From a virus (Duplodnaviria > Heunggongvirae > Uroviricota > Caudoviricetes): a DNA stretch of 27,426 nt. How positions within the stretch are numbered: the stretch's first letter is position 1; each line of letters begins with the position of its first letter. Under the pieces are notes generated by a model, which did not search any database, was not told the DNA's origin, and was given only the letters and a program-made list of their open reading frames with translations. Of the stretch, positions 23,249 to 27,306 are shown one piece after another. The stretch is taken from the IMG/VR virus record IMGVR_UViG_2660238683_000003, positions 1 through 27,426 of that record, one strand, 5' to 3'. Both the position numbers and the translations under genes were made by a program.

Positions 23249-23265
23249 AATGCTCTAATAAATTT
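23249..23265 (+). promoter_or_regulatory. C1-repressor operator-like site (Op51-like) upstream of c4-icd-ant
   Basis: AATGCTCTAATAAATTT matches the asymmetric P1 C1 operator consensus ATTGCTCTAATAAATTT (from memory) at 16 of 17 positions. Confidence 0.55.
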
Positions 23266-23449
23266 GTATTTTTAAGTCGCGAATGCTATCTTTTCGCATC
23301 ATATTGACCTTTTAATCGTTCAGGCTTATAGTTCCGCCGTCGTAGCAAATTCTGCGACCGGGTTTAGCAGCCTGAATGTTAGTGCGGACAACCGCAGATA
23401 TCCGATATTGCGGTATTTTTGTGTCCGTAAAACCGCGTTACGCCCAAAT

Positions 23450-23530
23450 TATGGTGGGGCGTGATGGGGAGGCTTCGGCCTGCTGGTTTCACTAACGCCA
23501 GTCTGCTAACCCCGTCACGTCCTGCCACCT
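23450..23530 (+). ncRNA. c4: c4-like antisense repressor RNA (approximate ends)
   Basis: Segments TCACTAAC (23489-23496) and CTGCTAAC (23503-23510) are complementary to GTTAGTGA (23562-23569, overlapping the icd SD) and TTAGCAG (23533-23539). The same target-like pair recurs upstream at 23363-23384. Confidence 0.45.
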
Positions 23531-23579
23531 GTTTAGCAGCGGGTAGCAGGTTGTTAAACCTGTTAGTGAGGCCGTAACT

Positions 23580-23801: not shown

Positions 23802-24841
23802 AAAAAACTCTCATCACCCGGAATGAAATAGCCGAAGCGATCGCTTTGCATACAACCTGTATGCCGACACGGGAGATCCCCGGCGCAATTGCCAACTATT
23901 TCATGATAACCAGGCGTTTTTATACCCGAACAGATAAGGCTGTGATCAACAGGCTACTGATAACCGAGATCAGGGATTATTTGATTGAACAAGGACGTCT
24001 ACGTTACGCAACAGTGGCAGCAGAAATGAGAAAGGAGGCACATAGAATGACCAGTAATAATTTGAATGTTAAAAAACCAGCATCTGTTGCTTCAGCTACG
24101 CCATCTCCAGCCGTGAATGTCATCCCCAACACCGGAGACACAATCGACAGCCAAACATTGTTGAAGATGGTCAATGAGGCACGTAAGTTATGTGGAGAAC
24201 CAGAGGTTAGAAACAATAAATTCATCGAAAAAATACTCGATGAACTTGAAGGTGAATTTTACACAAAAAGTGCAAAATCCCATGGCACAAGGGCCGGGCG
24301 CTCTTTTGAGGTCATAACCATGACCTATAAACAAGCCCTGCGAGTCGCCGCGCGCGAATCAAAAGCTGTCCGCCGTTCGCTGATCGACAAACTAGAAGAA
24401 TTGCAGCAGGCAAACTCCCCTACTCCATCGATCCCCCAAACATTACCAGAAGCTCTACGCCTGGCCGCCGAGTTGGCAGAACAGAAAATGCAGTTGGAAC
24501 AACAGCTGGTGGCCGCTGCCCCTAAAGTCGATTTTGCCGACCGGGTATCAGTGGCTAATGGAATCCTGATCGGGAACTTTGCAAAGGTCGTTGGGCTTAA
24601 GCAAAACGCCCTTTTCTCATGGTTGCGCCAGAACGGCATTCTCATGGCTTTTGGTGCGCGCAAAAACGTACCGCGCCAGCAGTACATTAACGCCGGGTAT
24701 TTCACGGTGAAAGAAGTGGTGCTGGATGATGAAAATGGCTACCAGATACGGCTGACGCCCCAATTAACGGGTAAAGGCCAGCAGTGGTTAACTCGCAAGC
24801 TACTTGATGCTGGTTTGTTAAAACCAGTAGCAATAGGTTAA
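23798..24841 (+). CDS. ant1: Antirepressor Ant1 (347 aa); probable in-frame Ant2 start at 24047
   Basis: C-terminal roughly 140 aa (PQTLPEALRLAAELAEQK...GKGQQWLTRKLLDAG) is an antirepressor-type (AntA/KilAC-like) domain, also present in the next gene. Internal ATG at 24047 has AAGGAGG 8 nt upstream. Confidence 0.75.
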   Translation: MKKTLITRNEIAEAIALHTTCMPTREIPGAIANYFMITRRFYTRTDKAVINRLLITEIRDYLIEQGRLRYATVAAEMRKEAHRMTSNNLNVKKPASVASATPSPAVNVIPNTGDTIDSQTLLKMVNEARKLCGEPEVRNNKFIEKILDELEGEFYTKSAKSHGTRAGRSFEVITMTYKQALRVAARESKAVRRSLIDKLEELQQANSPTPSIPQTLPEALRLAAELAEQKMQLEQQLVAAAPKVDFADRVSVANGILIGNFAKVVGLKQNALFSWLRQNGILMAFGARKNVPRQQYINAGYFTVKEVVLDDENGYQIRLTPQLTGKGQQWLTRKLLDAGLLKPVAIG

Positions 24842-24853
24842 CAAAAGAAAAAA

Positions 24854-24878
24854 CCTGCCAGCAAACTGGCAGGTTTCT
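24854..24878 (+). terminator. Candidate intrinsic terminator/attenuator after ant
   Basis: Stem CCTGCCAG / CTGGCAGG with loop caaa, followed by only TTT, so weak. Confidence 0.4.
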
Positions 24879-24918
24879 GAGCAGATCGACCAACCCGATC
24901 TGGATCGGACTGGAAAAA

Positions 24919-24935
24919 TTTGCTCTAATAAATTT
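24919..24935 (+). promoter_or_regulatory. C1-repressor operator-like site (Op53-like) upstream of kilA-repL
   Basis: TTTGCTCTAATAAATTT matches the C1 operator consensus at 16 of 17 positions. Second copy of the motif in the window, same orientation, about 70 bp before kilA. Confidence 0.55.
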
Positions 24936-25004
24936 CGTTTTCTAAGTGCAAAGAATCACCATTTCGAGCTGGTGATTGAAGGTTGATGCAAATTTGGAGA
25001 AAAA

Positions 25005-25805
25005 ATGCAACAAACATTCAATGCGGATATGAATATATCAAACCTTCATCAAAATGTCGATCCTTCAACCACTCTGCCTGTTATTTGTGGTGTTGAAATT
25101 ACGACCGACCGCGCTGGCCGTTACAACCTTAATGCTCTACACAGAGCGAGCGGACTCGGTGCCCATAAAGCGCCAGCTCAATGGCTAAGAACGCTGTCAG
25201 CCAAACAGCTCATCGAAGAGCTGGAAAAAGAAACTATGCAGAATTGCATAGTTTCGTTCGAAGGCCGTGGCGGCGGCACTTTTGCCCATGAATTGCTCGC
25301 TGTGGAGTACGCAGGCTGGATTTCTCCCGCGTTTCGGCTGAAGGTAAACCAGACATTTATCGACTATCGAGCCGGAAGATTACAACCTGCTATTCCGCAG
25401 AGTCTCCCTGAAGCTCTCCGTTTGGCTGCCGACCTGGCAGAGCAAAAGCAACGGCTGGAGCAAAAAATGCTTCTGGATGCCCCTAAAGTCGAATTTGCCG
25501 AACGCGTTGCTACCGCCAGCGGGGTTCTAATCGGCAACTATGCCAAAGTGCTCGGCCTGGGCCAAAACTATCTCTTCACCTGGTTGCGTGATAACGGAAT
25601 TCTGATCGCAACCGGTGAGCGCAGGAACGTCCCAAAACAAGAATACATATCCCGTGGGTATTTCACCCTCAAAGAAACCGTGATCGATACAAGCAATGGA
25701 AGCAGGATTTCTTTCACGACTCGTATAACCGGCAAAGGTCAGCAGTGGCTGATGAAGCGATTGCTTGATGCTGGTGTGCTGGTACCTGTCGCGGCAACGC
25801 GCTAA
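25005..25805 (+). CDS. kilA: KilA protein (KilA-N domain plus antirepressor-type C-terminal domain), 266 aa
   Basis: N-terminal KilA-N-like segment (GRYNLNALHRASG...). C-terminal domain paralogous to the Ant C-terminus. GGAG SD 6 nt upstream. Confidence 0.7.
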   Translation: MQQTFNADMNISNLHQNVDPSTTLPVICGVEITTDRAGRYNLNALHRASGLGAHKAPAQWLRTLSAKQLIEELEKETMQNCIVSFEGRGGGTFAHELLAVEYAGWISPAFRLKVNQTFIDYRAGRLQPAIPQSLPEALRLAADLAEQKQRLEQKMLLDAPKVEFAERVATASGVLIGNYAKVLGLGQNYLFTWLRDNGILIATGERRNVPKQEYISRGYFTLKETVIDTSNGSRISFTTRITGKGQQWLMKRLLDAGVLVPVAATR

Positions 25806-25834: not shown

Positions 25835-26680
25835 ATGCTGGCTAAAGTCACTTTCCTGAGCTGTATAACGATGAGCGATTTTACTTTTTCTGGCTATGAA
25901 TTGGCCTGCTTTGTAACACACTCCGGTCTATCCCGTAGCGCCGGGTATATCCTGTCGCAATGTGCAAATCTCGCGGCTACAACCAGTGAATACTTCATTC
26001 ACAAGCCTCACCGCCTGATCGCGGCAGAAACTGGTTATAGTCAATCAACCGTCGTTCGTGTATTCCGTGAAGCTGTAAACAAAGGAATCCTGTCTGTAGA
26101 GATTGTTATCGGCGATCACCGTGAACGCCGCGCTAACCTGTACCGGTTTACACCATCCTTTTTGGCCTTCGCACAACAAGCTAAAAACGCGCTGACTGAA
26201 AGCAAATTAAAGATCTCTTCAGCCGCAACCAAGGTTAAAGCTGTTCTCGCTAAGACATTGGCTTTATTTGATTTTTTATCCACACCCCCATGTCAAAATG
26301 ATACCCCCTCCCCCTGTCAGGATGACGTGGCAATAAAGAATAAGAAGTCACAAGTTAAAAAAACAAAAAGATCAGTTTCCGGCGGTGCCGGAACGACCAG
26401 ACTCAAAAAATTGACTTCATGGATCGCTGAGGCAAAAGCAAAGGCTGACAATCTGCGGTTATCCAAAAAACGCGCTCAAAAACATGAGTTCAAGCAGAAA
26501 GTAGAGGCTGCTGCGCGGAAATATGCTTACCTGAAGAACAAGCGTTCGCCTGATATTGGCGGGATATCAAACTTCGATAATCTGCCGCATTGCATGACAG
26601 TAAACGAAGCTCTTAATGCGGTTTTAGCCAAAAATAAAGATAACGAACAATGGGGTATACCGGCAGGATTCAGAGGGTGA
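25835..26680 (+). CDS. repL: RepL-like lytic replication initiator (281 aa)
   Basis: HTH-like segment ETGYSQSTVVRVFREAVNKGIL. Position directly after kilA as in the P1 kilA-repL operon. Start uncertain (ATG 25835 or 25871). Confidence 0.6.
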   Translation: MLAKVTFLSCITMSDFTFSGYELACFVTHSGLSRSAGYILSQCANLAATTSEYFIHKPHRLIAAETGYSQSTVVRVFREAVNKGILSVEIVIGDHRERRANLYRFTPSFLAFAQQAKNALTESKLKISSAATKVKAVLAKTLALFDFLSTPPCQNDTPSPCQDDVAIKNKKSQVKKTKRSVSGGAGTTRLKKLTSWIAEAKAKADNLRLSKKRAQKHEFKQKVEAAARKYAYLKNKRSPDIGGISNFDNLPHCMTVNEALNAVLAKNKDNEQWGIPAGFRG

Positions 26681-26976: not shown

Positions 26977-27099
26977 TACAATCGCTGCGGGTGCTTGAGG
27001 CTATCTGCTTCAGGCATTACCCGAAAAGCAGACAGAAGAAAGCCCCAGATAACATTACGCGTCCTGCAAGACGCTTAACATTAATCTGAGGCCATATCT

Positions 27100-27306
27100 A
27101 TGCTTAGCATACGTAGATTAGCCTCTTACCGACCAAAAGGTCAAGGAGAAGCAGGCTATGAAGCAGCAAAAAGCGATGTTAATCGCTCTGATCGTCATCT
27201 GTTTAACCGTCATTGTGACGGTACTGGTAACGAGGAAAGACCTCTGCGAGGTACGAATCCGAACCGGCCAGACGGAGGTCACTGTCTTCACAGCCTACGA
27301 ATCTGA
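27100..27306 (+). CDS. mok: mok-like overlapping reading frame (modulator of killing)
   Basis: ORF that starts upstream of hok and overlaps almost all of it in another frame, as in hok/mok/sok loci. Confidence 0.35.
   Translation: MLSIRRLASYRPKGQGEAGYEAAKSDVNRSDRHLFNRHCDGTGNEERPLRGTNPNRPDGGHCLHSLRI
27110..27145 (-). promoter_or_regulatory. Candidate sok-like antisense promoter
   Basis: On the minus strand: -35 TTGACC (27144-27139), 18-bp spacer, -10 TAATCT (27120-27115). The transcript would run antisense across the mok start and hok leader. Confidence 0.3.

What the first reader, a model, noticed from the sequence alone, without database searches (positions are those of the whole stretch)
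24911..25004. Second C1-operator copy and an 8-bp perfect inverted repeat in the kilA-repL leader
TTTGCTCTAATAAATTT (24919-24935) is the second operator copy. It is followed by AATCACCA-N8-TGGTGATT (24954-24977), a perfect 8-bp inverted repeat between operator and kilA RBS. Just upstream (24889-24902) is another small palindrome, CCGATC-TG-GATCGG. The kilA-repL lytic replicon therefore seems to have layered control beyond C1, such as an attenuator hairpin or a second binding protein.
Basis: seen in the sequence. Interest (0 to 1): 0.4.

Follow-up and report, generated by a model that had tools for sequence, protein, structure and literature searches.

The report
Phage P1 kilA-repL control region
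This is the already well-studied switch region in front of the phage P1 lytic replication genes (repressor site, promoter, methylation sites and an opposing antisense RNA); the 8-bp inverted repeat is a real but unannotated hairpin inside the sense/antisense overlap, with no evidence of a separate regulator.

Summary
The window is a P1-type phage-plasmid. From the operator to the kilA start codon it is 100% identical to phage P1.

- **Operator.** The 17-mer at 24919-24935 is P1's annotated C1 operator Op53/OrepL. It overlaps the -10 of promoter P53/PkilA.
- **Small palindrome.** It is Dam sites 2 and 3 of the kilA regulatory region, and site 3 sits in the -35 hexamer. GATC-TG-GATC is invariant in 80/80 relatives. 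The outer C/G pair is kept in only 17/80.
- **8-bp inverted repeat.** It is exactly at 24954-24977. Chance of one in the 69-nt leader is about 2%. It is not annotated in P1.
- **Antisense RNA.** The repeat lies in the overlap between the kilA leader and the known P53as antisense RNA. That RNA starts at 25024 on the minus strand and ends at the minus-strand terminator 24878-24849, about 180 nt.
- **Folding.** The repeat folds stably in both RNAs.
- **Rejected readings.** No U-tract follows it on the sense strand, so it is not an intrinsic attenuator. It is unique in the 95-kb plasmid, so nothing points to a second protein.
- **Limits.** Relatives are all at least 95% identical, so covariation cannot be tested.

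Layered control is real but already known. This is an ordinary, known feature.

The parts
23249..23265 (+). First C1 operator copy (P1 Oc4/Op51) in front of c4-icd-ant
   Evidence: 1 mismatch to consensus. P1 annotation of Oc4 at 48140-48156. C4 RNA found at 23447-23532. Assigned by sequence match and position, not by direct alignment.
24851..24876 (.). Perfect 11-bp hairpin just after the ant stop codon. On the minus strand it is followed by TTTTTTCTTTTG, so it is the intrinsic terminator of the antisense RNA. It probably also ends ant transcription.
   Evidence: pair I2; it is the only terminator-like site in 24700-25200, on the minus strand at 24878-24849. Conserved in 80 loci.
24884..24906 (.). 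Cluster of three Dam GATC sites (24884-87, 24897-900, 24903-06).
   Evidence: P1 annotation 'Dam methylation site 1/2/3 within the regulatory region of kilA', mapped through the alignment. It is the only cluster of 3 or more GATC within 30 nt in the window. GATC-TG-GATC is invariant in 80/80 loci.
24901..24929 (+). Sigma-70 promoter P53/PkilA: -35 TGGATC at 24901-06, -10 TCTAAT at 24924-29
   Evidence: P1 annotation mapped through. The transcription start near 24937 is inferred from the -10 position and was not measured.
24919..24935 (+). C1 operator Op53/OrepL, overlapping the -10 of P53
   Evidence: Identical to P1. 77 of 80 loci are identical.
24954..24977 (.). Perfect 8-bp inverted repeat AATCACCA-N8-TGGTGATT. 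It forms a stem-loop in both the kilA-repL mRNA leader and the antisense RNA.
   Evidence: pair I6.: -9.6 kcal/mol on the sense strand and -9.9 on the antisense strand, z = -2.9 and -3.9; pair probabilities mostly 0.75-1.0 (outermost pairs lower) and the loop is largely unpaired (0.74-1.0 sense, 1.0 antisense). Not annotated in P1.
24996..24999 (+). kilA Shine-Dalgarno sequence GGAG. Its complement UCUCC is exposed in the loop of the first antisense hairpin.
   Evidence: Sequence. RBS annotation in X15638. Unpaired probability 1.0 in the antisense fold.
24843..25024 (-). P53as (PaskilA) antisense RNA, about 180 nt. It is complementary to kilA codons 1-7, the whole leader, Op53 and P53.
   Evidence: The transcription start annotated in P1 at 49915 maps to window 25024. 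Terminator. The fold has four hairpins with z = -5.1.
25032..25060 (-). Promoter P53as/PaskilA: TCGACA-17-TATATT with an extended -10 TG
   Evidence: it is the only promoter-like site in 24700-25200. P1 annotation. No variant in 25029-25064, the stretch holding the promoter, across 80 loci.
25005..25805 (+). kilA (266 aa)
25835..26680 (+). repL (281 aa), which contains oriL
   Evidence: PF26868 Phage_P1_RepL

Best explanation
The finding sits on the known control region of the phage P1 lytic replicon.

Shown by identity with the annotated P1 record:
- C1 repressor binds Op53 (24919-24935), which overlaps the -10 of promoter P53, and blocks kilA-repL transcription.
- Three Dam GATC sites lie at and just upstream of the -35. 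These include the 'small palindrome'.
- A constitutive convergent promoter inside kilA (P53as, start 25024, minus strand) makes an RNA of about 180 nt. It runs back over the ribosome-binding site, the leader, the operator and P53, and stops at the hairpin after ant.

Inferred:
- The 8-bp inverted repeat lies 18-41 nt into the leader, entirely inside the 88-nt sense/antisense overlap.
- It most likely acts at the RNA level. It would be the second stem-loop of the antisense RNA and its mirror image in the kilA-repL leader.
- The two 8-nt loops (GCUCGAAA and UUUCGAGC) are fully complementary and exposed.
- They would therefore be a natural first-contact ('kissing') point, or a structural/stability element, for the antisense RNA that damps the lytic replicon.
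- It is not an independent third layer of control.
For: Identity with P1:
- 100% identical to P1 AF234172 from the operator to kilA codon 25.
- The P1 record annotates Op53/OrepL, PkilA, three Dam sites, PaskilA and the antisense transcription start.

Antisense RNA geometry:
- The only promoter-like and terminator-like sites in 24700-25200 are on the minus strand, at 25060-25032 and 24878-24849.
- That gives an RNA of about 180 nt, the size I recall from Heinrich et al. 1995 (NAR 23:1468, from memory; the paper is not held in the library).

Folding:
- The antisense RNA folds far better than shuffles (z = -5.1, 0 of 200 shuffles as good).
- The repeat hairpin appears in both the minimum-energy and centroid structures of both strands.
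- Most stem pairs have probability 0.75-1.0, and the loop is largely unpaired in the sense RNA and fully unpaired in the antisense RNA.
- The neighbouring antisense hairpin exposes the anti-Shine-Dalgarno UCUCC.
- Both loops contain a YUNR tetranucleotide (CUCG, UUCG), read from the sequence.

Other:
- Chance of a perfect 8-bp repeat in the leader is about 2%.
- GATC cores are invariant in 80/80 loci.
- Clusters of 3 or more GATC occur at only five places in the sister plasmid. By position I assign these to oriR, pac (two), the cre promoter and the kilA promoter.
Against: - There is no covariation support. All 80 related loci and 510 plasmids are at least 95% identical here.
- The two arm variants seen (24961 A>T in 4 loci, 24973 T>C in 1 locus) are uncompensated.
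- Arm columns vary no less than the rest of the leader (2 of 16 against 9 of 53).
- The sense leader as a whole is not more structured than shuffles (z = -0.3 to -1.6).
- As I recall it, the published P53as effect was seen when both promoters were on the same DNA molecule. That fits transcriptional interference, which needs no RNA structure.
- About 5 such repeats are expected by chance per window.
- A YUNR motif in an 8-nt loop has a chance of roughly 27%.
Confidence: 0.5

Rival explanations
1. The inverted repeat has no function of its own. It is a chance dyad in a leader that is kept only because all P1-type elements are recent relatives. P53as acts purely by transcriptional interference between convergent promoters 88 bp apart.
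For: - No compensatory changes, and no extra conservation of the arms relative to the rest of the leader.
- About 5 perfect 8-bp repeats are expected per 27 kb by chance.
- The sense leader fold is not significant.
- More distant repL loci lack kilA and the whole P53 region. L004-L006 have c4-icd-orf82-repL. In D6, repL follows pro and lies upstream of c4-icd. L007 is an ant/kilA chimera. So the element is not required for a RepL replicon.
Against: - Local chance of a perfect 8-bp repeat in 69 nt is only 1.8%.
- The hairpin is significant on its own (z = -2.9 and -3.9).
- It sits next to an anti-Shine-Dalgarno loop in a strongly structured antisense RNA.
Confidence: 0.3
2. The repeat is a DNA operator for a second dimeric protein. 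Candidates are a P1 helix-turn-helix protein such as Hxr, KilA or RepL acting on their own operon, or a host factor. It would act as a roadblock downstream of P53.
For: - A perfect 8-N8-8 dyad lies between the transcription start and the ribosome-binding site.
- P1 encodes uncharacterised putative repressors (Hxr is annotated as 'possible repressor; homolog of Xre').
- RepL relatives are annotated as helix-turn-helix/MarR-like.
Against: - The dyad is unique. No other copy with 1 or fewer mismatches occurs in the 95.5-kb plasmid or in P1 1-48000, and no half-site occurs in repL/oriL.
- The arm centres are 16 bp apart, so they lie on different faces of the helix.
- I recognise no match to a known host-factor consensus (checked by eye only: IHF has 2 mismatches; LexA, CRP, DnaA and Fur do not match).
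- Nothing is annotated here in P1.
Confidence: 0.1
3. The hairpin is a transcription attenuator or pause signal in the kilA-repL leader.
For: A stable hairpin (-9.6 kcal/mol) forms 18-41 nt after the inferred start.
Against: - The sequence after the stem is GAAGGUUGAUGC, with no U-tract.
- The scan finds no + strand terminator-like site.
- No alternative anti-terminator pairing or leader peptide is evident.
- On the minus strand the tail CUUUGCACUU also fails the terminator criteria.
Confidence: 0.07

Closest known systems
Phage P1 Op53-P53 / P53as (OrepL, PkilA, PaskilA) control region of the lytic replicon (GenBank AF234172, X15638. From memory: Hansen 1989; Sternberg & Cohen 1989; Heinrich et al. 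1995; Lobocka et al. 2004)
   Same: It is the same locus. It is 100% identical from the operator through kilA codon 25, and 97.8% over 321 nt. The operator, promoter hexamers, Dam sites, antisense promoter, terminator and gene order ant | kilA | repL are all the same.
   Different: Only 4 substitutions in the P53 spacer (24909-24912, ACTG against GTCA in P1), one at 24889, a 1-nt A-run length difference at 24843-47 and one at 25079. The inverted repeat itself carries no annotation in the P1 record.
Counter-transcript (cis-antisense RNA) control of replication genes, e.g. R1 CopA/CopT and ColE1 RNA I/RNA II (from established knowledge)
   Same: A constitutive, short, highly structured antisense RNA ending in an intrinsic terminator. 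It is complementary to the leader of the replication-initiator mRNA. Exposed complementary loops occur in both RNAs, and one loop covers the Shine-Dalgarno sequence.
   Different: Trans action by RNA pairing has not been shown for P53as, and loop-loop contact at the repeat is only inferred. P53as also transcribes across the target promoter, so promoter interference is possible. This is not the case for CopA.
Convergent-promoter transcriptional interference, e.g. coliphage 186 pR/pL (from established knowledge)
   Same: Face-to-face promoters with starts 88 bp apart. The antisense transcript reads through the target promoter.
   Different: Relative promoter strengths and the mechanism were not tested here.
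Dam-sensitive promoters with GATC in a hexamer: P1 cre promoter P3cre, IS10 pIN (from established knowledge)
   Same: Paired GATC sites, the downstream one filling positions 3-6 of the -35. kilA has TGGATC and cre has TTGATC.
   Different: The effect of methylation on P53 was not tested here, and I could not retrieve a paper showing it.
P1 C4 antisense RNA of immI (Rfam RF01695)
   Same: A second antisense RNA layer in the same immunity/lytic region. It is present in the window at 23447-23532.
   Different: C4 is processed from the same-strand transcript and acts on short a/b target sites. The kilA leader has no Rfam match.

Membership tests
P1 C1-controlled operator (Op53/OrepL) | 17-bp asymmetric site matching ATTGCTCTAATAAATTT | tested here: met
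   24919-24935 has 1 mismatch. It is identical to, and co-linear with, the annotated P1 OrepL.
P1 C1-controlled operator (Op53/OrepL) | Overlaps the promoter it represses | tested here: met
   The -10 TCTAAT at 24924-29 lies inside the operator.
P1 C1-controlled operator (Op53/OrepL) | Bound by C1 repressor | not testable with these tools
   Follows only from sequence identity with the experimentally characterised P1 site.
P53as / PaskilA cis-antisense RNA of the P1 lytic replicon | Sigma-70 promoter on the opposite strand inside the 5' end of kilA | tested here: met
   TCGACA-17-TATATT with TG at 25060-25032, the only promoter-like hit. Identical to the P1 annotation. No variant in 25029-25064, the stretch holding the promoter, across 80 loci.
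P53as / PaskilA cis-antisense RNA of the P1 lytic replicon | Transcript of about 180 nt ending at an intrinsic terminator | tested here: met
   Start at 25024 (mapped from P1) to the minus-strand terminator at 24878-24849 plus its T-run gives about 180 nt. The published size is recalled from memory.
P53as / PaskilA cis-antisense RNA of the P1 lytic replicon | Transcript made and inhibitory in vivo | not testable with these tools
   No expression data for this element.
Intrinsic attenuator/terminator in an mRNA leader | GC-containing hairpin followed directly by a U-tract on the sense strand | tested here: not met
   The tail after 24977 is GAAGGTTGATGC. No + strand terminator-like site exists in 24700-25200.
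Dyad-symmetric protein operator | Match to a known binding motif, or recurrence at other regulated sites of the same genome | tested here: not met
   Unique in the window, in the 95.5-kb plasmid and in P1 1-48000. Known host motifs were compared by eye only.
Kissing-loop antisense/target stem-loop pair | Stable stem-loops with exposed complementary 5-8 nt loops in both RNAs | tested here: met
   This is a prediction only.
Kissing-loop antisense/target stem-loop pair | Helix supported by compensatory substitutions in relatives | tested here: inconclusive
   72 of 80 loci are identical. Two uncompensated arm variants and no double changes were seen. No relatives of intermediate divergence exist.
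Dam-methylation-sensitive promoter | GATC inside a promoter hexamer, conserved among relatives | tested here: met
   GATC at 24903-06 lies within the -35 TGGATC. GATC-TG-GATC is invariant in 80/80 loci. One of only five GATC clusters in the plasmid.
Dam-methylation-sensitive promoter | Promoter activity changes with methylation state | not testable with these tools
   Needs reporter assays in dam+ and dam- hosts.

The most novel reading that the evidence does not exclude
The unannotated 8-bp inverted repeat is the loop-loop nucleation site through which P53as RNA acts in trans on kilA-repL mRNA. That would make the P1 lytic replicon a true counter-transcript-controlled replicon like R1 or ColE1, with an induction threshold set by RNA pairing rather than only by promoter interference. 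Alternatively, it is the operator of a still unassigned P1 protein such as Hxr or KilA.
Probability: 0.2. Interest if true: 0.35.

Novelty: already known. Interest (0 to 1): 0.1.

Why it matters
The kilA-repL replicon drives P1 lytic replication and is the inducible amplification module of PAC/P1 cloning vectors. P1-type phage-plasmids also spread resistance genes. Even so, the operator, promoter, Dam sites and antisense RNA found here were described decades ago and are unchanged in this element. The only open detail is whether the leader hairpin contributes to antisense control. That would refine an existing model, not open a new one.

Tried and rejected
1. **Covariation test of the hairpin.** I collected 80 P1-type loci from IMG/VR and GTDB genomes, plus 22 phage and 510 plasmid hits. 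All are at least 95% identical, so no compensatory changes are possible to score.
2. **Search for diverged kilA leaders.**
   - A longer blastn query gave only artefactual lower identities, from the ant/kilA paralogous KilAC region.
   - KilA relatives at 46-60% identity in Chromatium, Thiocystis and Symbiopectobacterium were too distant from kilA to pursue, and I did not inspect their upstream regions.
3. **RepL relatives.**
   - D6 (28% identity) has no kilA and no C1-type operator.
   - The 47-49% relatives have c4-icd-orf82-repL.
   - A 'TCACCAC...GTGGTGA' hairpin that at first looked like the P1 repeat turned out to be part of their C4 RNA.
4. **Rfam.** No family matches the leader or the antisense RNA (all hits far below gathering scores).
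5. **Recurrence of the dyad as a binding-site regulon.** None found.
6. **Literature.** Heinrich 1995, Lobocka 2004 and the JMB 1989 papers are not held. The held papers mention P53/Op53 and cite the antisense paper, but say nothing about the repeat.
7. **Small palindrome as a hairpin.** Its RNA fold is not significant (z = -0.9), and its outer pair is not conserved.

Full report
**What is there**

The window around the finding carries the end of a 347-aa ant gene (stop at 24841), a 163-bp intergenic region, a 266-aa kilA (25005-25805) and a 281-aa repL (25835-26680).

- A 321-nt query (24780-25100) hits 22 phage records at 97.4-98.8% identity. These include P1, P7, SJ46 and RCS47.
- A 266-nt query hits 510 plasmids, all at least 95% identical.
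- The window is 99.4% identical over 24 kb to E. coli plasmid p1919D3-2, NZ_CP046005.
- Aligned with P1 AF234172, the window is identical at every position from 24913 to 25078. That stretch runs from the operator through kilA codon 25.

**Check of the observation**

- The 17-mer TTTGCTCTAATAAATTT is exactly at 24919-24935. The only other near-match in the window is at 23249-23265. By sequence match and position that copy corresponds to P1 Oc4/Op51; I did not align the two directly.
- The inverted repeat AATCACCA-N8-TGGTGATT is exactly at 24954-24977 and is perfect.
- The small palindrome exists but at 24895-24908.
- A perfect 8-bp repeat with a 3-12 nt loop turns up in 1.8% of shuffled 69-nt leaders. 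About five are expected per shuffled 27-kb window, and the real window has 13 distinct ones.

The repeat is therefore moderately unlikely locally, but it was selected after a whole-window read.

**What the P1 record already says**

Mapping the AF234172 annotation through the alignment gives the following features:

| Feature | Window coordinates |
|---|---|
| Dam methylation sites 1-3 'within the regulatory region of kilA' | 24884-87, 24897-900, 24903-06 |
| Promoter PkilA (former P53), -35 TGGATC | 24901-06 |
| Promoter PkilA (former P53), -10 TCTAAT | 24924-29 |
| 'Monovalent C1-controlled operator OrepL; former Op53' | 24919-24935 |
| Minus-strand promoter PaskilA (former P53as), -35 | 25060-55 |
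| Minus-strand promoter PaskilA (former P53as), -10 | 25037-32 |
| 'Transcription start site of RNA antisense to 5' region of kilA' | 25024 |

An independent consensus scan of 24700-25200 finds exactly one promoter-like site. It is that minus-strand promoter (TCGACA-17-TATATT with an upstream TG). The scan also finds exactly one terminator-like site, on the minus strand at 24878-24849 followed by TTTTTTCTTTTG.

Start to terminator is about 180 nt. That is the size I recall from the abstract of Heinrich et al. 1995 (NAR 23:1468). That paper, Lobocka et al. 2004 and the 1989 JMB papers are not in the held library. My account of their content is therefore from memory: the RNA is constitutive, C1-independent and inhibitory to the replicon. 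The annotation is the tool-based evidence.

**The small palindrome**

It is simply Dam sites 2 and 3 (GATC-TG-GATC) plus one flanking C/G pair.

- In 80 related loci the two GATC cores and the TG are invariant. The outer pair is present in only 17.
- As an RNA hairpin it is not significant (z = -0.9).
- Clusters of 3 or more GATC within 30 nt occur once in the window, here.
- They occur five times in the whole sister plasmid. By position I assign these to oriR, pac (two), the cre promoter and the kilA promoter (gene positions).
- The cre promoter P3cre has the same design, with GATC filling positions 3-6 of the -35.

The palindrome is therefore best read as methylation sites over the -35. It is not a hairpin or a protein dyad. 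How methylation affects P53 cannot be tested here.

**The 8-bp inverted repeat**

It carries no annotation in P1. With the P53 start inferred near 24937, it occupies about +18 to +41 of a leader of roughly 68 nt. It lies wholly inside the 88-nt region transcribed in both directions.

- *Stability.* Alone it folds at -9.6 kcal/mol (sense) and -9.9 kcal/mol (antisense). The z-scores are -2.9 and -3.9.
- *In context.* In the longest sense construct and in the antisense RNA the inner stem pairs have probability 0.8-1.0. They fall to 0.63-0.75 in the 124-nt sense construct, and the outermost pair is weak throughout (0.17-0.71). The loop is largely unpaired in the sense RNA and fully unpaired in the antisense RNA.
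- *The whole antisense RNA.* It folds into four hairpins with z = -5.1. The first is a 5' hairpin whose loop exposes UCUCC, the complement of the kilA Shine-Dalgarno sequence. The second is the repeat hairpin. The third spans the GATC region. The fourth is the terminator.
- *Fit to known designs.* This is the usual build of a counter-transcript. The two 8-nt loops are exact complements (GCUCGAAA and UUUCGAGC), and each contains a YUNR tetranucleotide.

I therefore think the repeat is most likely an RNA-level part of the known antisense system. It would be a loop-loop contact point or a structural element of the antisense RNA.

This step is inferred. The sense leader as a whole is no more structured than shuffles. 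As I recall it, the published cis effect of P53as is also compatible with pure transcriptional interference.

- *Attenuator.* The stem is followed by GAAGGTTGATGC, and no + strand terminator-like site is found. This defining feature is not met.
- *Second binding protein.* The dyad and its half-site do not recur as a dyad in the window, in the 95.5-kb plasmid or in P1 1-48000. No half-site lies in repL/oriL. Nothing supports a protein site, though a single-site operator cannot be excluded.

**Comparative evidence**

Among 80 loci, 72 have the identical 32-nt segment around the repeat.

- Four carry 24961 A>T, at the loop-closing pair.
- One carries 24973 T>C. This gives A·C in the sense RNA but G·U in the antisense RNA.
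- Two carry loop changes, and none is compensated.

Arm columns are no more conserved than the rest of the leader.

No relatives of intermediate divergence exist in the phage, plasmid, IMG/VR or species-dereplicated genome collections.

More distant RepL genes have a different arrangement:

- D6 has repL after pro and upstream of c4-icd.
- The 47-49% relatives have c4-icd-orf82-repL with no kilA.
- One E. coli contig carries an ant/kilA chimera that has lost the whole control region.

The P53/Op53/P53as module is thus specific to the tight P1/P7 group. Conservation can neither support nor refute the hairpin.

**Verdict**

The sequence observations are real, with one coordinate error. The operator call is correct. 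'Layered control beyond C1' is true, but it consists of the already described P53as antisense RNA and Dam sites, not an attenuator or a new protein.

The region is already known. The only unannotated detail is a leader hairpin whose role is untested.

Noticed in passing
window 25230-25255: A perfect 11-bp inverted repeat (GAAACTATGCA-N4-TGCATAGTTTC) lies inside kilA. On the minus strand it is followed by TTTTT, so it is terminator-like, and it sits upstream of the P53as promoter. It could shield P53as from minus-strand read-through. It is not annotated in P1.
   Followed up: no
window 24908-24912: Five adjacent polymorphic positions lie in the spacer between the P53 -35 and the operator, giving 16 haplotypes over 24880-24918 among 80 loci. 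The window's version GACTG is rare (2 of 80). P1 has GGTCA and the commonest is AGTCA. A paper reports that one of three P1vir immI-region substitutions lies in the PkilA promoter region (PMC8198154).
   Followed up: partly
L003 (phage D6) 3269-3297: D6 has a RepL only 28% identical and lacks kilA and a C1-type operator. It also has its only cluster of three GATC sites about 120-150 nt upstream of repL. Dam-site clustering ahead of the lytic replicon may be a conserved trait.
   Followed up: partly
L004 1428-3015; L005 and L006 3229-4816: In metagenomic RepL relatives (47-49% identity), repL sits directly behind an isrK-like RNA, a C4 antisense RNA, an Icd homologue (57% identical to the window's Icd) and an 82-aa ORF. 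There is no kilA and no separate promoter/operator region.
   Followed up: partly
L007 1309-2445 (E. coli GCA_012363615 contig): The N-terminal part of ant is joined to the KilAC C-terminal part of kilA, with frameshifts. This apparently arose by recombination between the paralogous KilAC regions. It deletes the terminator, P53/Op53, the leader and P53as, so repL (83% identical) follows immI directly.
   Followed up: partly
window 26989-27163: An Rfam sok antitoxin RNA (111 bits) lies just downstream of repL, with a hok-type ORF nearby. This is a type I toxin-antitoxin cassette in place of, or beside, the P1 rlf genes.
   Followed up: no
L098 (NZ_CP046005) 43967-45435: The sister plasmid carries a second icd-ant module directly next to c1, in addition to the immI copy. 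The window's ant 3' end gives an 86% blast match to it.
   Followed up: no
L009 and L016: Short contigs filed under a 'Bacillota bacterium' MAG (2.9 kb, kilA 99% identical) and Acinetobacter idrijaensis (251 bp, leader 97.6% identical) carry this P1 region. They look like mis-binning or contamination, possibly from P1-derived vectors or E. coli.
   Followed up: no
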